Translations under genes and position numbers: made by a program | Notes under the pieces: model-generated | The model's database searches: none | What the model saw: only the letters and a program-made list of their open reading frames with translations | Told to the model about the DNA's origin: nothing | UHGV virus genome: UHGV-0371537 | DNA length: 64,000 bases | Strand: one strand, 5' to 3' | Origin: a virus | Shown here: piece after piece, positions 2 to 40,812 of the stretch | Layout: each line of letters starts with the position of its first letter | Numbering within the stretch: the stretch's first letter is position 1

Positions 2-439
2 AAGGGCTACCTCAATGACGATGAATTTAATCGAGGCGGAATGGAGGCTGGCGATTTGATCATGACTGGCCGAATGGGCACCCAAGGCCGAATGACAGTC
101 AGACAGTGCCGTTCGCTTCCTTCTCCGGCATTACAGAAGGGTGTGCAGATAGGCCGCCGTCACCTGAACCTCATCAACGATGGCAACCAGTGCATCAAAG
201 TATTCGAATACAGCGCTACACAGACCTCTGATCGCGTCCTGAAGAAGGAATGGCGTACTCGCGCTCTTGGTCTCAGAGCCTGGCTGGTTGAGAACGATCA
301 TTATTTTGAGGATCGTGTTCAGAACGGTCTGAAAGACCTGGCCACGAATCTGAGCGTGAACCTTGATGATCCTCGCATGTCGCGCGAACTTCAGCAGACT
401 CGTGTTGACTGCGACAATATGATGAAGGAGAACGAGTGA
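2..439 (+). CDS. hypothetical protein, 3' portion (gene starts upstream of window)
   Basis: Open frame runs from window edge to stop at 437-439; no family recognised. Confidence 0.4.
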   Translation, partial: KGYLNDDEFNRGGMEAGDLIMTGRMGTQGRMTVRQCRSLPSPALQKGVQIGRRHLNLINDGNQCIKVFEYSATQTSDRVLKKEWRTRALGLRAWLVENDHYFEDRVQNGLKDLATNLSVNLDDPRMSRELQQTRVDCDNMMKENE

Positions 440-753
440 TGAAAGGTAAAATCCTACTCCTGCTGTTACTGATGACCGGGTGTGTAAACGCTACACCACC
501 GTCTAAACTGAATACCTGCGCCGCCTGGATGGAGACGTATCAGCAGTTCCACCCAGATGACAAAGATACATCTATCCTCCTGTCTGACTTCGAGGGGGAG
601 CTGAAGCGCCTTGATCTGTTCAGTGTTGATCAGATAGAGAATGCGCTGGATCTTCCCATGATGCTGACTGCGGCTGATAACAGCCCACAGACGAAGAAAG
701 ATCTGATGTATTGCCGGGGGATTGCCCAAGACTTTGTTGGCGTTTCAAAATAG
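439..753 (+). CDS. putative lipoprotein
   Basis: N-terminus MKGKILLLLLLMTGC = signal peptide with lipobox L-x-G-C; ATG overlaps upstream stop (gTGATGa). Confidence 0.5.
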   Translation: MKGKILLLLLLMTGCVNATPPSKLNTCAAWMETYQQFHPDDKDTSILLSDFEGELKRLDLFSVDQIENALDLPMMLTAADNSPQTKKDLMYCRGIAQDFVGVSK

Positions 754-803
754 ATTTCAGGGTAAAATTTAACCCTCCATTGAAATTGAAGGAATACATT
801 GTG

Positions 804-6571: not shown

Positions 6572-7300
6572 ATGGGTATGAATTATGTTGATCGTGGCGA
6601 GAATGTCGTCAAATATTTTACGGACGAAGATAACGAGCGTGTCATCAGTATCCTTCGTGACTGGATCCCCGCCCGTAAGAAAGCACTGGCCGAAGGAACA
6701 AGACTTCCAAAGATCCCCAACTATGTTGCTGTCCAAGTCCAGCGCATCATCACCAAGATGAGCACCCGCTACAATTATCGTGACTATCCCTTCCGTGAGG
6801 ACATGGTCTCTGAAGCCGTCGTGAACATCCTTCGTTACCTCCACACGTTTGACGTCGGCCATGTGGGCAAGAAAGGCAAAATCAATTTCTTTTCCTGGGT
6901 GACCATGTGTGCTGATCGTTCCTTCGCTCGCAAACTGAACATTGAAGAAGAACACACTTACATCAAGTTGCGCTCCTTTGAAGAGGCAGGCGGTTTCGCA
7001 GGGCTGGCTGATGACCCAGATTTCCAACAAGAGGTCTTCGTTGATGCTACTGGGATTGGTATGGACTTCCGCGAGCGCATCGGTAACTTCGAAAACAAGA
7101 AGGACGCCCAAAGACAGCGGGAACGCGAAAAGGTAGAGACCGCCCGAGCCGCTGAATCGAACAAAAAGATAGCGAAAGGCATACTTCAATACATGTCTCA
7201 GGGTAAGAATACCCCAACAGCGCAGGCCGAAGACGATTCAGATCAGGACTTCGGTAATACCCAATTCGATCTGGAAGAAAACGAAGGAGAAACAGAATAA
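6572..7300 (+). CDS. 55: late-transcription sigma factor gp55-like
   Basis: DW..., RYNY, LHTFD, CADRSF align with T4 gp55 (DWK, RFNF, LHNFD, CFNAF); directly upstream of gp47/gp46 as in T4; acidic C-terminal tail. Confidence 0.75.
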   Translation: MGMNYVDRGENVVKYFTDEDNERVISILRDWIPARKKALAEGTRLPKIPNYVAVQVQRIITKMSTRYNYRDYPFREDMVSEAVVNILRYLHTFDVGHVGKKGKINFFSWVTMCADRSFARKLNIEEEHTYIKLRSFEEAGGFAGLADDPDFQQEVFVDATGIGMDFRERIGNFENKKDAQRQREREKVETARAAESNKKIAKGILQYMSQGKNTPTAQAEDDSDQDFGNTQFDLEENEGETE

Positions 7301-8415
7301 TGGCGATTGCTAAAATCGGCGATCTGCATATCGGGAGCCGTAATGGTTCCCGTTACGTTCGCGACTTCATTAAGAACTATCTCATCAATTATTTCATCCC
7401 CGAGCTGGTCGCCTCCGACATCTATGAGGTGTGGCAGTTCGGTGATACGTTTGATGTCCGTAAATTCATGTACGGGCGTGACAAAGACTGGATGAAGGAT
7501 GAACTCACCCCTGCGTTGAAAGCGGCTGGTATCAAGTGGAATGGTATCGTGGGCAACCATGACATCACCCTGGAAGAGTCCAACCGCATCAACTGGCCAT
7601 CCTACCTGAACGAACTCGACCCTGACGTCTACCACTACTACAGTGAACCGACCGAAGTGATGATTGAGGGTGTTAAGACCCTGCTACTGCCGTGGATCAA
7701 CAAGGAGAACTATGATGCGTCTATTAAGGCGATACAAAATACAGACGCCAAGTACTGTTTTGCGCATTTGGAGTTGGCAGGGTTCAAAATGTACCAGTCC
7801 TCTACTTGTGATCACGGTCAGATCGACGTTACTCTCCTTTCCAAGTTTGACCGGGTCGATACGGGGCATTTCCATACCCGTTCGATGGAAGGTAACATTC
7901 AGTATATTGGGACTCCGTATCACCTGAACTGGGAAGACTACAAAGACGGCACCAACCGTGGCTTCTATGTAGACGACATGCGTGGCGGTGAAGTCTTCAT
8001 CCCTAATGCCGAGCACCAGACGCTGTTCCGCTACGTGGAATATGACTACACCAAATTGTCCTCCGATGACGAAGGCAATTGGATCGACCCGGAATGGCTG
8101 AACACAGGCTTGGGTATTGAAGGACAGATCGTTAAGGTAATCGTACAGAACCGCGACAACGCCAAGCATTATGAGAAGTTCTGTGATGCGATGAAGCGTT
8201 GCAAGTGTATTGACTACAACTTCATCGACCGGACGATTACCGTGGCGGCCGAGAAGGTTGAGGTCACCGAAGAGATGGTGGCAACCGATGCGGTGGAAGT
8301 CCTGAAGAAGGATATCCGCGCCGGGAACAACATCCAGCGCCCAGAAAATGTCTGCAAGCTGGCTGAGTACTTCTACAACGCTGCCCAACAACGCCTGAAC
8401 AAACTGGACGCATAA
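7300..8415 (+). CDS. 47: recombination endonuclease subunit gp47 (Mre11/SbcD-like)
   Basis: Calcineurin-like phosphoesterase motifs GDLHIG, GNHD, GHFH; immediately upstream of the Rad50-like gene. Confidence 0.85.
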   Translation: MAIAKIGDLHIGSRNGSRYVRDFIKNYLINYFIPELVASDIYEVWQFGDTFDVRKFMYGRDKDWMKDELTPALKAAGIKWNGIVGNHDITLEESNRINWPSYLNELDPDVYHYYSEPTEVMIEGVKTLLLPWINKENYDASIKAIQNTDAKYCFAHLELAGFKMYQSSTCDHGQIDVTLLSKFDRVDTGHFHTRSMEGNIQYIGTPYHLNWEDYKDGTNRGFYVDDMRGGEVFIPNAEHQTLFRYVEYDYTKLSSDDEGNWIDPEWLNTGLGIEGQIVKVIVQNRDNAKHYEKFCDAMKRCKCIDYNFIDRTITVAAEKVEVTEEMVATDAVEVLKKDIRAGNNIQRPENVCKLAEYFYNAAQQRLNKLDA

Positions 8416-8416
8416 C

Positions 8417-10753
8417 ATGACCCAAAGTACAGATATCCTGGCCAAATTTGGCAATCTTCTGAAGGAAGCTGACACCCCGGTAGAGGTGGAAGTCCCATTC
8501 GAAGTGCGTGATAACATTACGCACAAACTGACCTTCCGCAAAGGCCGCGCCAAGAACTTCCGCTCCATCGGCAATCAGTTCATGGAGATTGATTACCAGC
8601 GCAACCCGGCTACCCTCGTCACGTCCGATGACAACGGCGCGGGTAAATCCACGATGCTGGTGTGGCTGTTGTTCTTCGTATTGTACAACGACACGTACAG
8701 CAAGAAGGAGAAGAAGGCAGGTCTGGTGAACTCACAGAGCCGCAAGGAATGTGTGGGCGAGGTGGAGTTTGCCTGTCGCGGCAGCGAATGGAAGGTTCGC
8801 CGTGGCATTAAACCTGACTTTGTTGAAGTCTACCAGATGGCGGACGGCAAATGGATGCAGATCGATAATGAAGCAGCCAAGGCCGACATGAACAAGTACA
8901 TCGTGAACCTCATCGGCGTGGACCAGAAGATGTTTGAGAACTCTCTGGTTCTGGGTAAAGAGAAGTTCATTCCGTTTACGGAGATGTACACTGCCGACCG
9001 CCGCGCCATGGTGGAGACGATTTGGGACTTGGGCTTCTTCAGCCTGATGAACGAAGATGTCAAGGCCGCCATCAAGAAAGCAAACGAAAAGCTGGACACA
9101 ATCGCAAATGAATGTGCTTTGAAGGTTGTTGACCACACCAACAAGAAGACGCAGCTGCAGCAGATAGAGCAGTCCAATGCCCTTATCCAACAGCAGTCGG
9201 CTGATATTCTTGTGCAGCAACAGGAAGCACTGACTTCCCTGGACGCTGACATCGCCACCCAGAATGAAGAGCGCACCCGCCTCACAGCTGTGGAGTTTGA
9301 AGCCACCCAGGAAATGAAGACGGTGGAAAGCCGCCTGCATGATGAATCCATGGTTGAGATCGAGGCTGTGAAGAAAGACTTTGAAGCCAAGATCCAAACC
9401 GTGAAGAATGCTGCTCAGGACAAGGCTGACGATTATGAACGCATCGAAGTGTCTACCGCCGAGCATGATCTTCAGGTCTTGCGTGACCGCGCCTTTACAG
9501 TGGCCGAAAGCAAGAACACTCTACTCACCGAGCGCAATGCAAACCTGGATGCCCTGAACGCTGCTATCCAACGCCGCCAGCAGGGTGAGAACTTCCGCAT
9601 CAAGTTCCAGACCGAAATGGACGGACATCAGTCGGCCATCAAGCGCTTCCACGACATGGGGACTTGCCCTACCTGTACCCAACTGGTCTCCGATGACACC
9701 AAGGCGCGGATTGAGAGTGAGTACAATCCTCAGATCCAGGAACTGCAGTCGAAGTTAGATCAACTGGACAAAGTTACCGCCGATATCAATGTCCTGATCG
9801 ATGACCACAAGGCTCAGGACGATAAGTTGGTTGCCGATATTGCTGTGTTGGACGCTGAACTGGATGCAATGCGCAAGCAGGCCGACGAAATCGTTGACAA
9901 CATCAAACAGCTGCGCCGTGACATTCAGGGGTTCCATGACGCCGCCACGATCGAGTGTAACTCTCTGAACCGTGAATGTCAGCAGAAGATCCTTGACATC
10001 CGTAAGGCGTTGAACGTTCGTTTTGAAGACATCACTGCATCGCTGCAACAGACGCGGGAGAACGCCGTTAGCGGGATTAAAGCCGTCGATGATAAGATCG
10101 CCGAGCTGAAAGCCCGTCGTGCTCCTCTCGTGGCGTCGATTGCCGATCTGGAGCGTAAACTGTCTATACAGCCGACACCCACAGCCGACCTGGAGAATGC
10201 CATCTCCTCGATTGAGGGTGAACTGGAAGATCTATACCAGCGCCGCGAGGATGCTGACCAGGAACTTCAAGACTTACAGCACCTGTTGTTCTTCCTGAAG
10301 GATGACCAGACCAAGGCGCGCATCATCGCCCTGTACCTGCCATTCCTCAATAGCAAGATCAACGAGTATCTTGAAGCCCTTAACATGTTCCTGGACATCG
10401 TTGTTGACGATACCTTTGAGATCACCATGAGTGCAGCAGGTCGCAAGGGGCAGAGCATCTTTTCCTTGTCTACTGGCCAACGCAGTCGTCTGAACCTGGC
10501 TGTGACATTAGCCCTGCGTGATGTGGCTAACCTCAAGGCATCAGTGCAGTGCAACCTGTTCGTGCTGGATGAAATCCTTGAGAACATGAGCGAGCGCGGG
10601 GTGCAGGAATCGGTTGAGATGCTGAAGCATAAGTTCGGCGGGAACAACCTGTTTGTCATCAGTCAGCGTGAGCAGGAGTTCCAGGAATACTTCCAACACA
10701 ACATCCGTTATGGCCTGCGAAACGGCCTGACCGAAGTTATCAAGAAGGATTGA
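8417..10753 (+). CDS. 46: recombination ATPase gp46 (Rad50/SbcC-like)
   Basis: Walker A GAGKST, long coiled-coil, CPTC zinc-hook motif, ABC signature SGQRSR, Walker B LFVLDE. Confidence 0.85.
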   Translation: MTQSTDILAKFGNLLKEADTPVEVEVPFEVRDNITHKLTFRKGRAKNFRSIGNQFMEIDYQRNPATLVTSDDNGAGKSTMLVWLLFFVLYNDTYSKKEKKAGLVNSQSRKECVGEVEFACRGSEWKVRRGIKPDFVEVYQMADGKWMQIDNEAAKADMNKYIVNLIGVDQKMFENSLVLGKEKFIPFTEMYTADRRAMVETIWDLGFFSLMNEDVKAAIKKANEKLDTIANECALKVVDHTNKKTQLQQIEQSNALIQQQSADILVQQQEALTSLDADIATQNEERTRLTAVEFEATQEMKTVESRLHDESMVEIEAVKKDFEAKIQTVKNAAQDKADDYERIEVSTAEHDLQVLRDRAFTVAESKNTLLTERNANLDALNAAIQRRQQGENFRIKFQTEMDGHQSAIKRFHDMGTCPTCTQLVSDDTKARIESEYNPQIQELQSKLDQLDKVTADINVLIDDHKAQDDKLVADIAVLDAELDAMRKQADEIVDNIKQLRRDIQGFHDAATIECNSLNRECQQKILDIRKALNVRFEDITASLQQTRENAVSGIKAVDDKIAELKARRAPLVASIADLERKLSIQPTPTADLENAISSIEGELEDLYQRREDADQELQDLQHLLFFLKDDQTKARIIALYLPFLNSKINEYLEALNMFLDIVVDDTFEITMSAAGRKGQSIFSLSTGQRSRLNLAVTLALRDVANLKASVQCNLFVLDEILENMSERGVQESVEMLKHKFGGNNLFVISQREQEFQEYFQHNIRYGLRNGLTEVIKKD

Positions 10754-16108: not shown

Positions 16109-16714
16109 TTATTTCACATACATACTGACTTGTACTTTCTTACCTTTTTCGTTTTTGACGTCCATCAGCTTGGATGCACCATTCAGTTTCATGACGGTTC
16201 CGCGTTCTTTGCCGCCATTCGGTAACTCGTATTCAATATCTTCCCCAGGAGATGGCATACCCGCATGAGGTCCCATAACCATGGCGATCTTATAACGAGC
16301 CAAGCCGGGGCGACCGCCTTTATACGCATACCAACCACCTTCAGTCATTTCTTTCCATTGCTTGTTACCGTCAATGGAGATAAAGGAATTGCCCATACCT
16401 GATTTGACATCCAACAAGTCAATATATTTGCCTGATTTGTTGTACTTGACAGCGGTGTCAGTATCAACCTTGTCAATCATCTGGGCGCTGGCAAACTGTC
16501 CATCTTTCAATCCAGATGCTGAGATGATGTCTTTGGCATTGGCCAGGATTATCTTGCGACCGTCAGGGGTTTCAAAGGTGGCTTTGTCGCCACTAACACT
16601 AACTCGCAAGAAAGTGCCGATATTGTCTTCGGTGGACTTGCCGATCTTGTCTGACTTGATATGAACAGACATCGGTGGCGCGGCTTCGGTCAAAAAGTCT
16701 TGAAAAGTTTTCAT
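16109..16714 (-). CDS. internal-protein-like (capsid-targeting N-terminus)
   Basis: N-terminus MKTFQDFLTEA nearly identical in pattern to T4 CTS MKTYQEFIAEA; GGAGAA RBS. Confidence 0.65.
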   Translation of the reverse strand: MKTFQDFLTEAAPPMSVHIKSDKIGKSTEDNIGTFLRVSVSGDKATFETPDGRKIILANAKDIISASGLKDGQFASAQMIDKVDTDTAVKYNKSGKYIDLLDVKSGMGNSFISIDGNKQWKEMTEGGWYAYKGGRPGLARYKIAMVMGPHAGMPSPGEDIEYELPNGGKERGTVMKLNGASKLMDVKNEKGKKVQVSMYVK

Positions 16715-22191: not shown

Positions 22192-22851
22192 ATGAATTAT
22201 CAAAATATCTATGACTCTCTGATACAAAGAGCCAAGACCCGTTCATTGGTTGGTTATTCTGAAACCCACCATATTATCCCTAGATGTATGGGAGGGAAAG
22301 ATGACAAACATAATCTGGTGGAGTTGACACCAGAAGAACATTATTTAGCACATCAATTGTTAGTCAAAATATATCCCAAAAATTTCAAATTAGCATTTGC
22401 AGCTAATGCTATGTGCGTAAACAATGAATTCTCCGGTAGATCTTGTAACAAATTATTCGGTTGGTTGCGGAGAAAACTTTCTCATTCCAATAAACAGATG
22501 TACAAAGACAACCCTAATTTGAGGAAAATTCGTTCCGATCAAATGAAACAGACACATGTAAAGTATTCTCATTTGCGGGAAATACAGTCTAAACGTTTGA
22601 AGGAAAACAATATATGCGTGATAAAACAACCTTGGGAAAGTAACCATGCCACCAAAGAGTCTTTGGATATATGGAAACGCGCCGACGAATATTATGATTG
22701 GTGGTTGTGCAACCAAAAAGGTTGCACGTTCATGGCGAAAGCGTTTGGGTTCAAAAACAAGACGACTCCGCATTTCACAATGATTAATAAATTTAAATCT
22801 GGGTGGAATCCCAAAGCCGACCCAGAGTGGTTAGAGTTTGTAAGTCAATAA
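22192..22851 (+). CDS. HNH homing endonuclease (free-standing)
   Basis: ETHHIIPRCMGGKDDKHNLVELTPEEHYLAH = HNH motif; A+T-rich island between phoH and nrdA. Confidence 0.75.
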   Translation: MNYQNIYDSLIQRAKTRSLVGYSETHHIIPRCMGGKDDKHNLVELTPEEHYLAHQLLVKIYPKNFKLAFAANAMCVNNEFSGRSCNKLFGWLRRKLSHSNKQMYKDNPNLRKIRSDQMKQTHVKYSHLREIQSKRLKENNICVIKQPWESNHATKESLDIWKRADEYYDWWLCNQKGCTFMAKAFGFKNKTTPHFTMINKFKSGWNPKADPEWLEFVSQ

Positions 22852-22910: not shown

Positions 22911-25199
22911 ATGAGCGAAATTAACGTCATTAAGCGGGACGGATCTTCTGTCCCCTTTGATATTGAGAAACTACACGCAGTCGTAGACCGCGCATGTGAC
23001 GGCCTGCCTGGTGTATCAATGTCAGAGGTGATCGCTGCATCGAAGATTCAGTTCACCGACAACATGAGAACAGATCGCATTCAGGATATCCTCATCCAGG
23101 CTGCGGCTTCGCTGATCTCTGTAGACAAACCCAATTACCAGTATGTGGCTGCTCGCCTGAAGTCATATGATCTGCGCAAGGCTGTCTATGGCCAGTACAA
23201 GCCGCCTCACCTGCTGGATATCTTCGTCAAGAACATCAAACAGCGTGTGTATGATCGTGAGTTCCTTGATCTCTACACGACCGAAGAGTTCAACGAGCTG
23301 AACGATGTTATCAACCACAAACGTGACAAGAACTTCACCTGGGCGGCCATGGGTCAGCTGACAGAGAAGTATCTGCTGCGTGACCGTTCCAAGAAGGACA
23401 GCAAGATCTTCTATGAAACCCCACAGGTCATGTACATGGGCATCGCCATGGCGTTGTTCTCCAACTGGGACAAAGACAGCCGCCTGGATATGGTGAAGAA
23501 GTTCTATGAATATGCCAGCACAGGCAAGTTCAGTCTTCCAACCCCGATTATGGCAGGCGTTCGTACTCCTACCCGTCAGTTCAGTTCCTGCGTGTTGATC
23601 AAAACTGGTGACACCCTGGACTCTATCAACGCAACAGCCAAGACCATCGTTGACTATGTGTCCAAACGTGCGGGTATCGGCTTCGACATCGGGGCGATAC
23701 GTGGGATTGGTAGTCCTATTCGCGGCGGAGAGATGGTTCACACAGGCCTGATCCCATTCATCAAGTATCTCACTGGGGCGCTCAAGTCTTGCTCCCAGGG
23801 CGGCATTCGTGGTGGTGCAGCAACAGCTTATATCCCTCTGTGGCATTACCAGTTCGATGACGTCGTTGTACTGAAGAATAACCGTGGCACTGAAGAAAAC
23901 CGCGAACGCCGTATCGACTACGGTATTCAGATCAACCGCGTGATGTTTGAGCGCCTGGTTGCCAAGCAGCCTCTGTATCTGTTCGACCCGAAAGACAACC
24001 GCGAAATGTACGAAGCATACTTCTCCGACGTCGACAAGTTCCGTACTCTGTATGAGAACATGATCAAGGCCGCCGATGCTGGTCTGGTACGTTCTAAGAA
24101 GCTGCAGGCTGAAGAAGTGTTCCAGATGCTGTTAGACCAGCGTTCAGACACAGGCCGCATCTACATCGCATTTGTCGATCACATGAATGAATACAGCCCA
24201 TTCAACCTCGACACGATCTACAGCTCCAACCTGTGTCTTGAAATCGCCCTGCCGACCCGTGAGTTTGAGCAGTACAACGATGAAAACGGGCGCGTGGCTC
24301 TGTGCACCCTGGCTTCCTTTAACCTGACGGCGTTCGAAGACCCGACTGAGATGGAAGACGTGGCGTTTGTGTTGGTGTCTGCGCTGGACATGCTGTTGGA
24401 ATATCAGGACTATCCGGCAATCCAGGCTCGTAAGGCTGTTGAGGATTATCGCCCTCTGGGTGTTGGTATCGTGAACGTGGCTCACTTCTTGGCCAAGAAC
24501 TTCACAGGCTATGGTTCTCCGGCTGGTCTTGAGATGTTGGATGCGTGGATGGCACACCTGCACTACTATCTGGTCAAGGCATCCAACCGTCTGGCGATGA
24601 AGTTCGGTGCATGCAAACGTGGAACCATCCACAATAATGGGCAGGTCACTGCCGATCTTCAGCCGCTTCCACTTGATATCCTGCCGAATGGTAAGAAACC
24701 GGAAGGCATGGCATACGGCCTGGATTGGGAAGAACTGAAGGATGATCTGAAGACCTATGGTATCCGCAATGCCACCCTGCTGGCAGTAGCCCCTACCGAA
24801 AGCTCCTCACAAGTCCTCAACGCAACGAACGGCATTGAGCCACCGAAGGGCTTGGTAAGCATTAAGGGCAGCAAGGACGGCACGTACAAGCAGGTCGTTC
24901 CGGATGTAGAGACCCTTGGACCGCTGTATGACCTGAAGTGGGACCTGGAATGCATCGAGTACCTGAAGACCGCTGCTGTCATCCAGCGCTGGGTTGACCA
25001 GTCCATCAGTACCAACACATGGTATGACCCAGAGAAGTACCCTGACGGCAAGATCCCTCGTGCTAAGATGATGCAGGATATCCTGTCGTTCTATATGTGG
25101 GGTGGTAAGACTCTGTATTACAACACGAACAAGGACGCCAAGGAAGACGAAGAGCTGAAACAGGCTGATGCCGTGGAATGTGAAAGTTGTATCGTGTAG
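22911..25199 (+). CDS. nrdA: ribonucleotide reductase class Ia alpha subunit
   Basis: 762 aa; N-terminal ATP-cone VIKRDGSSVPFDIEKL; active-site region NLCLEIALP; C-terminal CESC redox pair. Confidence 0.95.
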   Translation: MSEINVIKRDGSSVPFDIEKLHAVVDRACDGLPGVSMSEVIAASKIQFTDNMRTDRIQDILIQAAASLISVDKPNYQYVAARLKSYDLRKAVYGQYKPPHLLDIFVKNIKQRVYDREFLDLYTTEEFNELNDVINHKRDKNFTWAAMGQLTEKYLLRDRSKKDSKIFYETPQVMYMGIAMALFSNWDKDSRLDMVKKFYEYASTGKFSLPTPIMAGVRTPTRQFSSCVLIKTGDTLDSINATAKTIVDYVSKRAGIGFDIGAIRGIGSPIRGGEMVHTGLIPFIKYLTGALKSCSQGGIRGGAATAYIPLWHYQFDDVVVLKNNRGTEENRERRIDYGIQINRVMFERLVAKQPLYLFDPKDNREMYEAYFSDVDKFRTLYENMIKAADAGLVRSKKLQAEEVFQMLLDQRSDTGRIYIAFVDHMNEYSPFNLDTIYSSNLCLEIALPTREFEQYNDENGRVALCTLASFNLTAFEDPTEMEDVAFVLVSALDMLLEYQDYPAIQARKAVEDYRPLGVGIVNVAHFLAKNFTGYGSPAGLEMLDAWMAHLHYYLVKASNRLAMKFGACKRGTIHNNGQVTADLQPLPLDILPNGKKPEGMAYGLDWEELKDDLKTYGIRNATLLAVAPTESSSQVLNATNGIEPPKGLVSIKGSKDGTYKQVVPDVETLGPLYDLKWDLECIEYLKTAAVIQRWVDQSISTNTWYDPEKYPDGKIPRAKMMQDILSFYMWGGKTLYYNTNKDAKEDEELKQADAVECESCIV

Positions 25200-25270: not shown

Positions 25271-26374
25271 ATGAGCGAACAGAAACAATTTTCCGTATTC
25301 GACCCAAGCTCGGACAACACTGGCCTGCCGTTCTTCGGCGACCCAGTGAGCATCCAGCGCTATGACATCGTGGCTTGGCCATTCGTACAGAAGTGGTATG
25401 AGAAAGGCCTCAGCCAGTTCTGGCGTCCGGAAGAAGTAGACATCACCAAGGACAAGGCCGACTATGCCACCCTCACACCTGCTGAAAAGCGCATCTATGA
25501 GAGCAACCTGAAGCGCCAGACCATGCTGGATTCTATCCAGGGCGCGGCTCCGTTCGAGGCGTTTGGTCCATGGGCGTCTACCCCTGAAATGCAGTTCGCC
25601 GTCCTTGAGTGGACGCGCCAGGAAGCCATTCACTCCCTGTCGTACACCCACATCCTGCGAAACACTGTGAACGATCCTGGTATCGTGTTTGACCACGTGT
25701 TGGACGTTGCAGAGATCGTGGATTGTGCTCATCAGATTAGTACTCACTATGACGATATGGTTCGTTACAGTGGCATGCGTATGGCTGGTCGCGCCTTTAC
25801 CCGTGAAGACATGATGAATGCCAAACGTGCATTCTGGCGTGCTCTGTTTGCTGCCAACACACTGGAAGGCATCCGCTTCTACGTGTCCTTTGCATGCTCT
25901 TGGGCGTTCACGCAGTTCCAGAAGAAGATGGAAGGTAATGCTAAAATCATTCGCCAGATCGCCCGTGATGAGCAAGATCACCTGATCCTGACTCAGACGC
26001 TGCTGAACCGTCTGCCTGGCATGGACCCTGACTTCGAAATCATCCGTGAGGAACTGCGTGGTGAGATGACCCAGATGTTCTTGGACGTGGGTAATCAGGA
26101 GAAGCAATGGGCTGACTATCTGTTCCAGGACGGCTCCATGCTTGGCCTGAACGCGAAGATCCTACACCATATGGTAGACTGGTTGCTCACCCACCGCATG
26201 GGCGCTATCGGACACCCATATCCTGGGGAACCACGTAAGGAATGCCCAGTGCCATGGATCAACGAGTGGCTAAATAATAAGACAATGCAGTACGCGTTGC
26301 AGGAAGCTGAAGCTCCTGATTATCTTATGGGTGTACTGACTGGTTCAGTATCCGACGGCCTCAAATTCGCTTAA
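25271..26374 (+). CDS. nrdB: ribonucleotide reductase class Ia beta subunit
   Basis: 367 aa; ferritin-like di-iron motifs (EAIHSLSY, EGIRFYVSF); adjacent to nrdA. Confidence 0.9.
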   Translation: MSEQKQFSVFDPSSDNTGLPFFGDPVSIQRYDIVAWPFVQKWYEKGLSQFWRPEEVDITKDKADYATLTPAEKRIYESNLKRQTMLDSIQGAAPFEAFGPWASTPEMQFAVLEWTRQEAIHSLSYTHILRNTVNDPGIVFDHVLDVAEIVDCAHQISTHYDDMVRYSGMRMAGRAFTREDMMNAKRAFWRALFAANTLEGIRFYVSFACSWAFTQFQKKMEGNAKIIRQIARDEQDHLILTQTLLNRLPGMDPDFEIIREELRGEMTQMFLDVGNQEKQWADYLFQDGSMLGLNAKILHHMVDWLLTHRMGAIGHPYPGEPRKECPVPWINEWLNNKTMQYALQEAEAPDYLMGVLTGSVSDGLKFA

Positions 26375-26383
26375 AGGTGAGAA

Positions 26384-26608
26384 ATGATTACGATCTATTC
26401 CAAACAAGGTTGCGCTCAGTGTGTTACAGCTGAAAATCTGTGTAAGATGAAAGGGCTGGAACACAAGATCCTCAAGCTGGACAAAGACTACCAGCTGGAA
26501 GAACTTCAGAAGTTGACGGGTAAGCAGCGCATGTCTATGCCTGTAATCGTCCTCGCTGACCAGACCGTGACCGACGTTACTGGACTCGCCGCCAGCCTCA
26601 AGCGCTGA
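26384..26608 (+). CDS. glutaredoxin-like redoxin (NrdC/NrdH-like)
   Basis: 74 aa; CAQC active-site motif near N-terminus; immediately downstream of nrdB. Confidence 0.7.
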   Translation: MITIYSKQGCAQCVTAENLCKMKGLEHKILKLDKDYQLEELQKLTGKQRMSMPVIVLADQTVTDVTGLAASLKR

Positions 26609-26616
26609 TCTGTCAA

Positions 26617-26640
26617 AGCCCCTCAATGAGGGGCTTTACT
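26617..26640 (+). terminator. rho-independent terminator after nrdC-like gene
   Basis: agcccctc-aatg-gaggggct then tttactttt. Confidence 0.55.
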
Positions 26641-26663
26641 TTTGAAACACCCTCCCCTATACT
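26635..26663 (+). promoter_or_regulatory. early-type promoter TTTACT-N17-TATACT
   Basis: Overlaps 3' arm of the nrdC terminator hairpin; paralogous to 12894-12922. Confidence 0.5.
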
Positions 26664-26713
26664 TCCCAATAATTCATTGGCATTCGCCACAAATTGAAAG
26701 CGGGAACTATATC

Positions 26714-27175
26714 ATGACAAACAAAGTGCTCACCAACCCACTGCACAACTTCGGTTACATTCAGCTTCCTCTGGTGATTGATACCCTATACGCTGATGAC
26801 AAAGAGGAGATCTGTTGGTCTCCAACCGCTCTGATTGAACGCGAAATCTTCAAGTCTGTTGTTGATGTTATGTTCCGTATCGGTCGCAATGCACCTCTGG
26901 TCTACCTCGGCAAAGCAACTGAACTGAAGACAAGCCACAACGAACGCTTCCTGCGCATTGATACTACCGGGTGCTCCCAGCAAGACTTCAACACACTGCG
27001 CAATTATGTTCTGGTCAACCGCCCGGTATCCCAGCATCGTCCTTACCTGACGTCAATGCACATAGACAGTTTCATCACTGACGTACACCTGCAGGCTGAA
27101 ACCCTCCATGAAGAGGAAACAGGCCGAGCTATCGACACTGTCTTAAATATGGTTGTGATCACCCTCGCGGAGTAG
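26714..27175 (+). CDS. hypothetical protein
   Basis: ATG 26714 in context ggaactatatcATG behind promoter cassette. Confidence 0.5.
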   Translation: MTNKVLTNPLHNFGYIQLPLVIDTLYADDKEEICWSPTALIEREIFKSVVDVMFRIGRNAPLVYLGKATELKTSHNERFLRIDTTGCSQQDFNTLRNYVLVNRPVSQHRPYLTSMHIDSFITDVHLQAETLHEEETGRAIDTVLNMVVITLAE

Positions 27176-38505: not shown

Positions 38506-38518
38506 ATTGGAGCAGTCT

Positions 38519-39184
38519 ATGTCCTACTCCCTCAAGGGGTTGCTCAAGCGCCCCGTCCACACATTCATTAAACCGCCTGTCGTAAAGGGGATATACCCGG
38601 CACGAGGGCAAATCTATTACGTCAAAGGCTCGAATGGTAGCGGTAAATCTACCGTGCCTTCCCAGCTGGCGGAGAGGGATCCTCAGGCGTATGTCGTGAC
38701 GCATGATAGCAAGATCATGCTGACGGTCTGTCCGTCATTCAACGTGGTCTGCATTGGCAAATATGATAAGTCAAAGTCCAAGGGGGTTGATTCTCTGAAG
38801 GATACTGAACAAATGCTATTCGCCCTGAGCATCGCCGATCTACCTGAATATCAGGTATACGATGTGATCTTTGAAGGCATCATCCCGTCAACACTGCTGA
38901 GTTCCTGGATTCCCCGCCTGACGCGCCCACCGCGCGAACTGGTTGTCCTCTTCATGGACACCCCTCTTGAAACCTGCATCGCCCGTGTTAAATCACGTAA
39001 CGGCGGTGCGGACTTCAATGAGAGCCTCGTGGTAGAGAAGTGGGGGCGCGTTCAAGACCACCGCCAGCGCCATAAGGGCTTGTTCCCTACGGTGGCCGCA
39101 GGTATGATGAAGTCTCACGGTCTAACAGTAGACCAGGCTGTAATGGCATTCCTCTGTCGTGATTTTGGGGATATTGATGACTAA
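38519..39184 (+). CDS. P-loop NTPase, kinase-like
   Basis: Walker A YVKGSNGSGKST (close to polynucleotide-kinase-type GxxGSGKST); ggag RBS. Confidence 0.55.
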   Translation: MSYSLKGLLKRPVHTFIKPPVVKGIYPARGQIYYVKGSNGSGKSTVPSQLAERDPQAYVVTHDSKIMLTVCPSFNVVCIGKYDKSKSKGVDSLKDTEQMLFALSIADLPEYQVYDVIFEGIIPSTLLSSWIPRLTRPPRELVVLFMDTPLETCIARVKSRNGGADFNESLVVEKWGRVQDHRQRHKGLFPTVAAGMMKSHGLTVDQAVMAFLCRDFGDIDD

Positions 39185-39749
39185 GAAATTGGTCTATGGG
39201 GTTGGTCACAACGACATGCCCTATGGCACAGCTACGGTAAATGGAAAGGCAACCGACGAATATTCTGCTTGGTCGGGGTTGTTACAAAGGGCGTATGATC
39301 CAAAATACCATGCCAGAAATCCGACTTATGTTGGTTGCTCTGTCGTGGAAGAGTGGCATTTTCGATCGAAATTCGTTAAGTGGTTTGGTGTGAACTACGT
39401 TAAAGGATGGTGTCTAGACAAGGATATTTTGAATCCTGGAAACAAAGTTTATGGCCCAGACACATGCATCTATGTGCCCGTTTGGATCAATACATTTGCC
39501 AATGATAGCGGCGCAATAAGGGGTGGTCTCCCAATAGGAGTTTCATTAAACAAGACAACCGGAAAATATCTTTCTCAGTGTAAATCCGGTGGTAAAGTGA
39601 TAAATCTGGGTTATTACGACGACCCCAAAGAAGCGCACGAGGTTTGGTTGAGATTTAAGCTAAACCTGGTTTTGGAAAGGAAGAAAGACATGGATAGTAT
39701 AGACCATCGTATTTATCCAAATCTGGTTCATATTTTGCAAAGTAAATGA
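39177..39749 (+). CDS. homing-endonuclease-like protein with AP2-like DNA-binding motif
   Basis: A+T-rich gene; KVINLGYYDDPKEAHEVWL resembles AP2/HNH_3-associated DNA-binding motif. Confidence 0.4.
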   Translation: MTKKLVYGVGHNDMPYGTATVNGKATDEYSAWSGLLQRAYDPKYHARNPTYVGCSVVEEWHFRSKFVKWFGVNYVKGWCLDKDILNPGNKVYGPDTCIYVPVWINTFANDSGAIRGGLPIGVSLNKTTGKYLSQCKSGGKVINLGYYDDPKEAHEVWLRFKLNLVLERKKDMDSIDHRIYPNLVHILQSK

Positions 39750-39765
39750 TTATTGGAGACCAATT

Positions 39766-40812
39766 ATGGAAATCAAAGCAATTAACAACAATGACATGCT
39801 GAAAAAGGCTGTCTTGGCTATCCGCGAATACGGGATTGAGTCAGACCCTGGCAACGCGGAGATTAACACGGACGGCACCCGCTTCCTTGATGGTGTGACG
39901 ATTACCGTGGATGATATCCGTGACCGCTGGCTGTCTGTTGAAGGTCGTAACTCATCGGCTATCGCTGCCATCGGCGAGACCTTCTGGGTTCTGTCCGGGC
40001 GCGATGACGTTCGCTTCCTGTCCCGTGTGTTGCCCCGCGCCGCCAACTTTTCCGACAACGGCCACACATGGCGAGCCGCTTATGGTCCGCGTCTGTACGC
40101 CCATGGCCAGCTGGATAGCGTCATCAACCGCCTGCGTAAGAACCCAAACACTCGCCAGGCGTACCTCACCATCTATGACCCGGCTCTGGATTCAGATGCT
40201 GGCCTGGCGAAGTTCAGCGAGAGTGGCGAAGCGAAGACTAAAGACATGGTGTGTAACCTGGCTCTGTTGTTCGCCATCGTTGAAGGTCGTCTGAACCTGA
40301 CGGTCATCAACCGCTCGCAAGATGTTCTGTGGGGTATGAGTTCAATCAATTTCATTGAGTTCTCTATCCTTCAGGAAGTGATTGCTCAGGTGCTGGATGT
40401 TGATGTCGGTCAGTACAAGCTCTTCTCCAACAATCTTCATTACTACAACAATGAAGTCAGCCAGAAGCAGCTGGGCAAGATCACGAAGGACACCAAAGTA
40501 GAAGCTGGGTTCATCAACTCCATGATTCACTTCAAGAACGTGACCAACCAGAACCATATCCGGAATCTGTTCACTGGTGTGCTTCATCATTGTGATATCG
40601 GTAGCCCTTGGGAAACTGTGGTCGCCCACCTGAAGGAATATGATGCTGATCGCGGCCTGATTGTACAGATGGCATACTGCCTGTATTGTAAGCTGAACGA
40701 CAAGCTCATCAACATGAACCTGATTCAGGATCATGGTCTGAACATCGCGCTCACCCATTCCCCGGTTGACCGCAAGATCGTTGATCCTAAGTTCCTGGAA
40801 GGTGCAGCATGA
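39766..40812 (+). CDS. thymidylate-synthase-superfamily enzyme, probable pyrimidine-nucleotide hydroxymethylase (gene-42 position)
   Basis: TDGTRF, catalytic-Cys region DMVCNLALLF, INRSQDVLWGMSSINF align to TS motifs (PCH..., YQRSxDVFLGxPFNIASY) but lack the PCH His; about 80-aa C-terminal extension. Confidence 0.65.
   Translation: MEIKAINNNDMLKKAVLAIREYGIESDPGNAEINTDGTRFLDGVTITVDDIRDRWLSVEGRNSSAIAAIGETFWVLSGRDDVRFLSRVLPRAANFSDNGHTWRAAYGPRLYAHGQLDSVINRLRKNPNTRQAYLTIYDPALDSDAGLAKFSESGEAKTKDMVCNLALLFAIVEGRLNLTVINRSQDVLWGMSSINFIEFSILQEVIAQVLDVDVGQYKLFSNNLHYYNNEVSQKQLGKITKDTKVEAGFINSMIHFKNVTNQNHIRNLFTGVLHHCDIGSPWETVVAHLKEYDADRGLIVQMAYCLYCKLNDKLINMNLIQDHGLNIALTHSPVDRKIVDPKFLEGAA

What the first reader, a model, noticed from the sequence alone, without database searches (positions are those of the whole stretch)
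8417..10753. Expanded Rad50-like gp46
At 778 aa the protein is much longer than T4 gp46 (about 560 aa as I recall). The extra length lies in the coiled-coil around the CPTC zinc hook.
Basis: partly seen in the sequence, partly recalled or inferred. Interest (0 to 1): 0.2.

Follow-up and report, generated by a model that had tools for sequence, protein, structure and literature searches.

The report
Long-armed phage Rad50 (gp46) homologue
This is the ordinary Rad50-like DNA-repair ATPase of a known phage family (Ackermannviridae); it is 218 residues longer than its T4 counterpart, mainly because its two coiled-coil arms are about 1.7 times as long, a length kept throughout the family and already present in many sequenced phages.

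Summary
Window 8417-10753 (+) is one ORF of 778 aa. T4 gp46 is 560 aa, and both carry a central CPTC zinc hook (residues 417-420 here, 288-291 in T4).

Of the 218 extra residues:
- About 173 lie in the two coiled-coil arms, roughly 88 before the hook and 85 after it.
- About 11 are scattered in the ATPase lobes.

AlphaFold2 models the middle as a confident antiparallel helical hairpin. No inserted domain or internal repeat was found.

The length is not an artefact. The window is an Agtrevirus (Ackermannviridae) about 91% identical in DNA to SKML-39 and AG3, and the listed homologues closest to the query are nearly all 772-779 aa. The arms are only 24-29% identical to the most distant aligned homologues, yet almost free of indels, so arm length is constrained.

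Across 152 gp46-family sequences, arm length ranges from the T4-like mode (about 570 aa) up to 918 aa. Both arms grow together (r = 0.996). A T4-relative, Vibrio phage ValKK3, has a 745-aa gp46.

Verdict: real, ordinary and already in public genomes. A side observation is that the clade has Gln-Arg in place of the ABC H-loop histidine.

The parts
7300..8415 (+). gp47 / Mre11 / SbcD-like nuclease subunit (371 aa), the partner of gp46. Its stop codon lies 2 nt before the gp46 start.
   Evidence: PHROG 100 'SbcD-like subunit', E 7.1e-107. BLASTP to T4 gp47 (339 aa): 33% identity over 256 aa, E 1e-32.
8417..10753 (+). gp46 / Rad50 / SbcC-like ATPase subunit, 778 aa plus stop codon.
   Evidence: It is 97% identical to the SKML-39 CDS AFU64413.1 of the same length.
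8417..8518 (+). N-terminal extension, residues 1-34 (MTQSTDILAKFGNLLKEADTPVEVEVPFEVRDNI). It is absent from T4 gp46 and its function is unknown.
   Evidence: The T4 alignment begins at window residue 44 = T4 residue 10. M1, F11, P27 and F28 are invariant in 15 homologues. In the long-arm clade, Walker A sits at residue 61-74 rather than 36-42. AF2 confidence is low here.
8519..9034 (+). ATPase lobe I, residues 35-206. It includes Walker A DDNGAGKST (8627-8653).
   Evidence: 30% identity to T4 residues 10-182. 76-82% identity to the most distant aligned Ackermannviridae homologues.
9035..9655 (+). Coiled-coil arm 1 (ascending helix), residues 207-413. About 207 residues, or about 31 nm at 0.1485 nm per residue.
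   Evidence: AF2 gives one continuous helix, with block pLDDT 87-97 in the hairpin model. The heptad heuristic scores z = 2.5 against shuffles.
9656..9691 (+). Zinc-hook apex, residues 414-425 (MGTCPTCTQLVS). The CPTC motif is at 9665-9676.
   Evidence: C417, P418, T419 and C420 are invariant. AF2 places the loop between the two long helices. A central CxxC motif was found in the family members that could be scored.
9692..10300 (+). Coiled-coil arm 2 (descending helix), residues 426-628. It has a conserved 7-residue break, SIQPTPT, at residues 583-589 (10163-10183).
   Evidence: AF2 helices 426-582 and 590-628. The heptad heuristic scores z = 6.0. P586 and T589 are invariant.
10301..10753 (+). 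ATPase lobe II, residues 629-778. It contains the signature LSTGQ (10466-10480), Walker B LFVLDE (10556-10573), and ISQR at the H-loop position (10658-10669), where Gln750-Arg751 replace the usual His.
   Evidence: 26% identity to T4 residues 346-547. Motifs were located. Q750 is invariant in the family alignment and aligns with T4 His536.
6572..7300 (+). gp55-like late sigma factor. This is context only: the gene order 55-47-46 matches T4.
   Evidence: PHROG 234, E 6.3e-51. The T4 record M10160.1 lists genes 55, alpha-gt, 47, 46.

Best explanation
The ORF encodes the Rad50/SbcC-type ATPase subunit (gp46 orthologue) of an Agtrevirus (Ackermannviridae) phage. It is translated next to, and most likely works with, the Mre11/SbcD-type nuclease gp47.

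Shown here: the chain folds back on itself. The N-terminal lobe (Walker A) and the C-terminal lobe (signature, Walker B, D-loop) are separated by an antiparallel coiled-coil hairpin of about 205 residues per arm, with a CPTC zinc hook at its apex. The arms are about 88 and 85 residues longer than in T4 gp46, roughly 31 nm against 18 nm. A 34-residue N-terminal extension accounts for most of the remaining extra length. Arm length is fixed within the family while arm sequence drifts.

Inferred from what is established for T4 gp46/gp47, E. coli SbcCD and archaeal Mre11-Rad50: two gp46 chains pair their heads on ATP binding and join their apices through one Zn2+ held by four cysteines. DNA ends are clamped between the heads and the zipped arms. 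ATP hydrolysis then drives gp47 end resection, which feeds recombination-dependent replication and break repair. A longer arm gives a longer rod or larger ring and a longer reach between heads and hook. The extra length would therefore tune geometry rather than add a new activity.
For: Identity of the protein:
- PHROG 77, E 8.8e-163 over residues 1-777.
- Pfam SMC_N above its gathering threshold.
- BLASTP to T4 gp46 matches both lobes.
- Archaeal Rad50 is the only hit in the PDB sequence search.
- The best Foldseek hit for both AF2 models is Rad50 7zr1.
- The gp47 partner is adjacent, with T4-like 55-47-46 gene order.

Coiled coil:
- AF2 hairpin model: mean pLDDT 90.1, with helices 207-413, 426-582 and 590-628 and a loop at 414-425.
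- The full-length model gives the same helices.
- Heptad signal exceeds shuffles in the arms only.
- The arms have a coil-like composition, with 1.5% Gly and 1.0% Pro.

Not an artefact or a recent event:
- The listed homologues closest to the query are nearly all 772-779 aa.
- The arms are 24-29% identical to the most distant aligned homologues, against 76-82% for the heads, with only 0-2 gapped columns across the roughly 410 arm positions.

Family-wide pattern:
- Walker A-to-hook and hook-to-signature distances co-vary in 152 sequences, r = 0.996, slope 0.95.
- The classes run from 254/187 (the mode, which includes T4) through 343/268 (this protein) to about 410/342.
Against: - Nothing here tests activity.
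- The ATP site departs from the canonical pattern. The H-loop His is Gln750-Arg751, the first Gly of Walker A is Asp71, and the column of T4 Gln134 is Asn175. ATPase kinetics could therefore differ from T4.
- AF2 confidence for the globular head is poor, with pLDDT mostly below 60 from a 15-sequence alignment.
- Arm lengths in nm are residue counts multiplied by 0.1485 nm. They are not measurements, and a review quotes only about 10 nm for phage coils (PMC7752040).
- No coordinates of the models were available, so helix-helix packing was judged from pLDDT and from Foldseek hits to antiparallel hairpins.
Confidence: 0.92

Rival explanations
1. The extra length is an annotation or ORF-calling artefact: a wrong upstream start codon, a fusion of two genes, or a sequencing frameshift.
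For: The first 34 residues have no counterpart in T4. They are only moderately conserved, with a mean majority fraction of 0.55. AF2 models them poorly.
Against: - Only 34 of the 218 extra residues are N-terminal, so a wrong start could not explain the rest.
- The ORF is collinear with a single 772-779-aa protein in many independent genomes and metagenomes.
- M1, F11, P27 and F28 are invariant, and relatives at 33-49% identity align from residues 4-25 onward.
- The start lies 2 nt after the gp47 stop codon.
- Both ATPase halves, which must belong to one chain, flank the coil.
Confidence: 0.02
2. The extra residues are a foreign or non-coil domain inserted into the arm (for example a hinge-like or DNA-binding module, an intein or mobile-element remnant), or a recent internal duplication.
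For: There is a conserved island inside the arms: residues about 243-265, and 575-596 including the SIQPTPT break. Both lie about 166 residues from the hook, so they should face each other. This could be a joint or a binding site.
Against: - AF2 gives uninterrupted helices apart from the 7-residue break.
- No Pfam domain lies within residues 207-628 other than weak coiled-coil-type DUF hits below threshold.
- There are no tandem repeats in the DNA and no internal protein self-similarity.
- The extra length is split almost equally between the two arms, 88 and 85 residues. The same holds family-wide. This is what an antiparallel coil requires and what a one-sided insert would not give.
Confidence: 0.02
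3. The direction of change is the reverse of 'expanded': long arms are ancestral, as in cellular SbcC/Rad50, and T4-type gp46 is a reduced form.
For: Cellular homologues are longer than T4 gp46 (review PMC7752040: bacterial about 250 A, archaeal about 300 A, phage about 100 A). The neighbour-joining tree used here is midpoint-rooted on head domains only and carries no support values.
Against: In that tree the 254/187 class is the large majority, about 100 of 152 sequences. It occurs on both sides of the deepest split, the H-loop His type and the Gln type. Long forms are nested in several separate places and have different lengths. Several independent lengthenings are therefore more parsimonious.
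Confidence: 0.2

Closest known systems
gp46 homologues of Ackermannviridae (e.g. Salmonella phage SKML-39 AFU64413.1; Shigella phage AG3 orf00119 'Gp46 recombination endonuclease subunit'; Kuttervirus, Taipeivirus and Limestonevirus homologues)
   Same: Same protein. It is 97% identical to SKML-39 and has the same 778-aa length. Other genera are 64-72% identical at 775-777 aa. The neighbours (RNase H, gp55, gp47) and the CPTC hook are the same.
   Different: Nothing of substance. DNA identity to the nearest records is about 91%, so this is another member of the genus. In the SKML-39 records the gene is labelled only 'hypothetical protein'.
Bacteriophage T4 gp46 (T4 Rad50), 560 aa
   Same: - Split ABC ATPase: 30% identity in lobe I and 26% in lobe II.
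- CPTC zinc hook in the middle.
- Adjacent gp47 nuclease and 55-47-46 gene order.
- The two arginines of T4's Arg154/Arg155/Lys156 basic patch align with Arg195/Arg196 here.
   Different: - Arms about 88 and 85 residues longer.
- A 34-aa N-terminal extension.
- H-loop His536 replaced by Gln750-Arg751; Walker A first Gly replaced by Asp71; T4 Gln134 column is Asn175.
- The coil is strongly acidic, net charge -27 against -2 in T4.
gp46 of Schizotequatrovirus (Vibrio phage ValKK3, KVP40-like), 745 aa
   Same: Also a long-armed phage gp46. Its Walker A-to-hook distance of 343 is identical to this protein's, and its hook-to-signature distance is 275 against 268.
   Different: It belongs to the T4-like His-type subfamily (IISH) and lacks the N-terminal extension. 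Its hook is CSTC. Its long arms therefore look independently acquired.
E. coli SbcC and archaeal/eukaryotic Rad50
   Same: Same architecture: ABC head, antiparallel coil and CxxC zinc hook, partnered with an Mre11/SbcD nuclease. An arm of about 30 nm is in the range a review quotes for prokaryotic cellular homologues, 25-30 nm (PMC7752040).
   Different: Sequence similarity is only marginal: M. jannaschii Rad50 at E 1e-4, head only. The canonical H-loop His is absent here.

Membership tests
Rad50 / SbcC / gp46 family (SMC-like ABC ATPases with zinc hook) | N-terminal Walker A (P-loop) GxxxxGK[ST] | tested here: met
   DDNGAGKST at residues 71-79, with G76-K77-S78 intact. The first Gly of the consensus is Asp71. 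That position varies in the Gln-type subfamily, where it is Gly in only 28 of 95 sequences.
Rad50 / SbcC / gp46 family (SMC-like ABC ATPases with zinc hook) | C-terminal ABC signature motif, Walker B (hhhhDE) and D-loop on the same chain | tested here: met
   LSTGQ at 684-688 and LFVLDE at 714-719, followed by ILENMSE. All are invariant in the family alignment and aligned with T4 FSEGE / LILDE.
Rad50 / SbcC / gp46 family (SMC-like ABC ATPases with zinc hook) | H-loop ('switch') histidine after Walker B | tested here: not met
   The position aligned with T4 His536 (IISHKD) is Gln750, followed by Arg751 (VISQRE). It is invariant in 15 homologues. The same [ST]Q[RN] variant occurs in 95 of 152 gp46-family sequences, so it marks a subfamily. 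It does not argue against homology, which rests on whole-protein sequence matches. Its effect on catalysis is untested.
Rad50 / SbcC / gp46 family (SMC-like ABC ATPases with zinc hook) | Central CxxC zinc-hook motif at the apex of an antiparallel coiled coil | tested here: met
   CPTC at 417-420 is invariant. It lies in the loop between two helices of about 205 residues each in the AF2 models. Zinc binding itself cannot be tested here.
Rad50 / SbcC / gp46 family (SMC-like ABC ATPases with zinc hook) | Encoded with, and acting with, an Mre11/SbcD-type nuclease | tested here: met
   The gp47 homologue lies immediately upstream at 7300-8415: PHROG 100, E 7.1e-107, and 33% identity to T4 gp47. The physical interaction was not tested.
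Rad50 / SbcC / gp46 family (SMC-like ABC ATPases with zinc hook) | Significant sequence match to curated family models | tested here: met
   Pfam SMC_N, 42.5 bits (cutoff 40), spanning residues 45-758. PHROG 77, E 8.8e-163.
Rad50 / SbcC / gp46 family (SMC-like ABC ATPases with zinc hook) | Q-loop glutamine | tested here: inconclusive
   The column of T4 Gln134 (FKQIVV) is Asn175 here (FENSLV). In the HMMER alignment to M. jannaschii Rad50, the canonical Q-loop Gln aligns with Lys181 here and, by transitivity, with Thr141 of T4. Which residue acts as the Q-loop in phage gp46 cannot be settled from sequence.
Rad50 / SbcC / gp46 family (SMC-like ABC ATPases with zinc hook) | ATP-dependent head dimerisation, DNA-stimulated ATPase and stimulation of the nuclease | not testable with these tools

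The most novel reading that the evidence does not exclude
Phage gp46 arm length may be a tuned mechanical parameter rather than a loose spacer. Lineages hold discrete lengths: Walker A-to-hook / hook-to-signature distances of 254/187, 343/268, 353/274, 381/301 and 410/342. They keep these lengths almost without indels while the arm sequence diverges to about 25% identity. This would resemble the periodic length constraints reported for SMC arms (PMC5344682).

The long-arm clade containing this protein also has a remodelled ATP site: Gln-Arg for the H-loop His, Asp for the first Walker A Gly, and Asn at the column of T4 Gln134. It has a clade-specific N-terminal extension as well. Together these would define a mechanistically distinct 'Gln-type' Mre11-Rad50 machine.
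Probability: 0.2. Interest if true: 0.35.

Novelty: already known. Interest (0 to 1): 0.1.

Why it matters
It matters little as a discovery. The gene, its length and its neighbours are already present in many deposited Ackermannviridae genomes, and several of them annotate it as the gp46 recombination endonuclease subunit.

It has some comparative value. T4 gp46, the biochemical model for phage Rad50, sits at the short end of a family whose arms span about 18 to more than 40 nm by residue count. T4 also represents only the His-type ATP site. A majority of the 152 family sequences sampled here carry Gln-Arg at the H-loop position.

Anyone extrapolating T4 Mre11-Rad50 kinetics or coiled-coil truncation results to other phages should bear both points in mind.

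Tried and rejected
- Internal duplication as the source of the extra coil. Tandem Repeats Finder found nothing in 8417-10753 at a minimum score of 30. BLASTP of the coil against itself gave only the self-match.
- Inserted domain. Pfam found only sub-threshold coiled-coil-type DUF hits within the arms.
- Locating where the extra coil sits relative to T4. The arms cannot be aligned between T4 and this protein, so only the totals per arm can be given. Within the long-arm clade, MAFFT scatters the indels along the arms and the placement is unreliable.
- Periodicity of the arm-length increments. The increments seen (about 25, 34, 47, 55, 68, 85-93, 116-131, 155 residues per arm) show no obvious period. 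There are too few independent lineages to test this, so it was not pursued.
- Reading Barfoot et al. 2015 on the T4 gp46 coiled coil (PMC4583041). The paper is not held in the library.
- A first paper search failed because one search term was too short.
- Literature on Ackermannviridae gp46. The search returned only unrelated uses of 'gp46' and 'gp47'.
- tRNA scan of the window: none found.
Full report
**1. What is in the sequence**

Window 8417-10753 (+) is a single ORF of 778 codons plus a stop codon. Its ATG lies 2 nt after the stop codon of the upstream ORF 7300-8415 and is the first start codon in that frame.

The genes upstream are an RNase H, a gp55-like late sigma factor (6572-7300; PHROG 234, E 6.3e-51) and a gp47/SbcD-like nuclease (7300-8415; PHROG 100, E 7.1e-107). 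T4 gp47 matches the nuclease at 33% identity over 256 residues, E 1e-32. The order 55-47-46 matches the T4 record M10160.1.

**2. What genome this is**

The window is not from a T4-type phage. It is about 91% identical in DNA to Agtrevirus phages of the family Ackermannviridae, such as Salmonella phage SKML-39, Shigella phage AG3 and Escherichia phage AV101. The protein is 97% identical to the 778-aa SKML-39 CDS AFU64413.1.

The first 48 kb of the window are collinear with SKML-39, apart from a few small insertions and deletions.

**3. Checking the observation**

Both proteins have a CPTC motif, at residues 417-420 here and 288-291 in T4.

BLASTP aligns only the two ATPase lobes:
- Window 44-223 with T4 10-182: 30% identity, E 6e-19.
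- Window 563-761 with T4 346-547: 26% identity, E 9e-21.

Taking window 44 = T4 10, 223 = 182 and 620 = 406 as anchors, the 218 extra residues divide as follows:

| Region | Extra residues |
|---|---|
| N-terminus | +34 |
| Lobe I | +7 |
| Lobe I to hook (arm 1) | +88 |
| Hook to lobe II (arm 2) | +85 |
| Lobe II | +4 |

About 80% of the excess is therefore in the arms, split evenly on either side of the hook.

**4. Is the middle really coiled coil?**

- A simple heptad-register score is well above composition-matched shuffles in arm 2 (z = 6.0) and moderately above in arm 1 (z = 2.5). It is not above shuffles in either head lobe.
- AlphaFold2 on the full protein with a 15-sequence alignment gives helices 192-412, 426-582 and 590-627, with arm pLDDT mostly in the 80s. 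The head is poorly modelled.
- AlphaFold2 on residues 190-640 alone with a 10-sequence alignment gives mean pLDDT 90.1. In full-length numbering the helices are 207-413, 426-582 and 590-628. The loop 414-425 carries CPTC, and a 7-residue break, SIQPTPT, lies at 583-589.
- The best Foldseek hit for both models in the PDB is Rad50 of the Chaetomium Mre11-Rad50-Nbs1 complex (7zr1). SMC, MukB and chemoreceptor antiparallel hairpins follow.
- There is no tandem repeat in the DNA, no internal self-similarity in the protein and no Pfam domain inside the arms.

By residue count at 0.1485 nm per residue, an arm is about 31 nm. The equivalent T4 segment (residues 166-284) is about 18 nm. These are my estimates; a review quotes about 10 nm for phage homologues, 25 nm for bacterial ones and 30 nm for archaeal ones (PMC7752040).

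**5. Artefact or conserved feature?**

The listed homologues closest to the query are nearly all 772-779 aa, and many come from contigs of 150-160 kb. I aligned 15 homologues spanning 50-96% identity and compared regions:

| Region | Identity to the most distant homologues (P0116, P0118, P0120) | Columns with gaps |
|---|---|---|
| Head lobes | 76-82% | 0 |
| Arms | 24-29% | 2 (arm 1), 0 (arm 2), out of about 410 positions |

Walker A-to-hook and hook-to-signature distances are 342-344 and 268-269 in all close relatives. This is the pattern of a coil conserved in length but free to vary in sequence (general concept: PMC5082667).

The N-terminal extension is less conserved but has invariant M1, F11, P27 and F28. 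It aligns from residues 4-25 onward in relatives of only 33-49% identity.

**6. How unusual is the length in the wider family?**

An exhaustive phmmer search of 1.84 billion cluster representatives found 5030 relatives at E <= 0.001. For the best 150, plus T4, ValKK3 and K485, I measured the distances Walker A to hook (d1) and hook to signature motif (d2).

- The mode is d1/d2 of about 254/187, for total lengths of 560-590 aa. About 100 of the 152 sequences fall here. T4 itself is 249/183.
- Other classes are 279/208, 289/220, 303/232, 310/242, 320/255, 332/271, 343/268 (this protein), 353/274-279, 372-381/301-308, 387/309 and 407-417/333-344 (totals up to 918 aa).
- d1 and d2 co-vary with r = 0.996 and slope 0.95, as an antiparallel coil requires.
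- Vibrio phage ValKK3, a KVP40-like member of T4's family Straboviridae, has a 745-aa gp46 with d1 = 343.
- Vibrio phage K485 has an 845-aa homologue in the same RNase H-sigma-SbcD-SbcC gene order.

In a midpoint-rooted neighbour-joining tree of the head domains, the short class lies on both sides of the deepest split. Long forms are nested in several places. This protein falls in one clade of 774-918-aa proteins that all carry the N-terminal extension, with Walker A at residue 61-74 rather than 36-42. Several independent lengthenings from a short ancestor are the more parsimonious reading, but the tree has no outgroup and no support values.

A multimodal arm-length distribution has been described for SMC proteins and suggested for Rad50 (PMC5344682).

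**7. Mechanism**

*Shown:* the protein has the split ABC head with Walker A, signature and Walker B motifs, the hook, the hairpin and an adjacent nuclease gene.

*Inferred* from established knowledge of T4 gp46/gp47, SbcCD and Mre11-Rad50 (summarised in PMC7752040 and PMC13402864):
- ATP-driven head engagement.
- Zn2+-mediated joining of two hooks.
- Clamping of DNA ends.
- Hydrolysis-coupled resection by gp47, feeding recombination-dependent replication.

The longer arms would change geometry (rod length, ring size, reach) rather than chemistry. I found no basis for a more specific functional claim.

**8. A side observation on the ATP site**

The residue aligned with T4's H-loop His536 (IISHKD) is Gln750, followed by Arg751 (VISQRE). 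It is invariant in the close family. Across the 152 sequences:
- 95 have [ST]Q[RN] at this position, 55 have [ST]H and 2 have Pro. The tree separates the Gln and His types cleanly.
- The first Gly of Walker A is Gly in 55 of 55 His-type proteins but in only 28 of 95 Gln-type proteins. It is Asp71 here.
- The column of T4 Gln134 is Gln in 54 of 55 His-type proteins but Asn in 57 of 95 Gln-type proteins. It is Asn175 here.

The catalytic Walker B Glu, the Walker A Lys and the signature Ser are retained. Among cultured phages, the closest relatives of a short Gln-type representative are Ralstonia phage RSP15 and Delftia phage PhiW-14, followed by Ackermannviridae.

The literature searches I ran found no discussion of this variant, but those searches were limited. 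It does not affect the verdict on the finding.

**9. Verdict**

The feature is a conserved property of a well-sampled phage family and is already present in public genomes, several of which annotate it. It is ordinary, and interest is low.

Noticed in passing
window 10658-10669 (gp46 residues 748-751, ISQR); also 8627-8629 (Asp71) and 8939-8941 (Asn175): The ABC H-loop 'switch' histidine (T4 gp46 His536) is replaced by Gln750-Arg751. Of 152 gp46-family sequences, 95 share [ST]Q[RN] and 55 have His. The split coincides with loss of the first Walker A Gly (Asp71 here) and with Asn in place of T4 Gln134. T4, the biochemical model, represents the minority His type in this sample.
   Followed up: partly
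window 9143-9211 (gp46 residues 243-265) and 10139-10204 (residues 575-596, including SIQPTPT): Two islands of high conservation lie inside the otherwise fast-evolving arms, each about 166 residues from the hook, so they should face each other in the hairpin. The second contains the only helix break in the AF2 models. They could be a joint or the gp47-binding site. They are conserved only among closer relatives, not in the 840-918-aa clade members.
   Followed up: partly
window 9035-10300 (gp46 arms): The coiled coil is strongly acidic, with net charge about -27 over about 410 residues and a composition rich in Asp, Glu, Gln and Ala. The T4 gp46 coil is near neutral (-2) and Lys-rich.
   Followed up: no
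window 22192-22851 (+): A 219-aa HNH-type homing endonuclease (PHROG 655, E 4.3e-66) lies immediately upstream of nrdA (22911-25199). This stretch has no counterpart at that site in SKML-39.
   Followed up: partly
window 39159-39749 (+): A 196-aa HNH endonuclease (PHROG 953, E 2.9e-79) is inserted between the 5-hmdU DNA kinase gene (38507-39184; Pfam PF18748, E 1.7e-106) and the thymidylate-synthase homologue (39766-40812). It sits inside the thymidine-hypermodification gene cluster, overlaps the kinase gene's 3' end by 26 nt, and is absent at this site in SKML-39.
   Followed up: partly
window about 26635-26642, compared with L005 (SKML-39) 26315-27133: The homing endonuclease that SKML-39 carries after nrdB (G178_gp094) is absent from the window, leaving an 818-bp gap in the alignment. 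Together with the two items above, this shows that the homing endonucleases in this region differ between these close relatives.
   Followed up: no
window 16109-16714 (-): A 201-aa ORF on the minus strand lies in a 759-bp stretch that does not align with the SKML-39 region compared (L005). It has no Pfam or PHROG match.
   Followed up: partly
window 7300-8415 (+): The gp47/Mre11-like partner is also longer than in T4, 371 aa against 339 aa. Only the first 250 or so residues align. The C-terminal third, which in Mre11 proteins holds the Rad50-binding region, shows no detectable similarity to T4 gp47. Pfam gave no hit at E <= 0.01.
   Followed up: no
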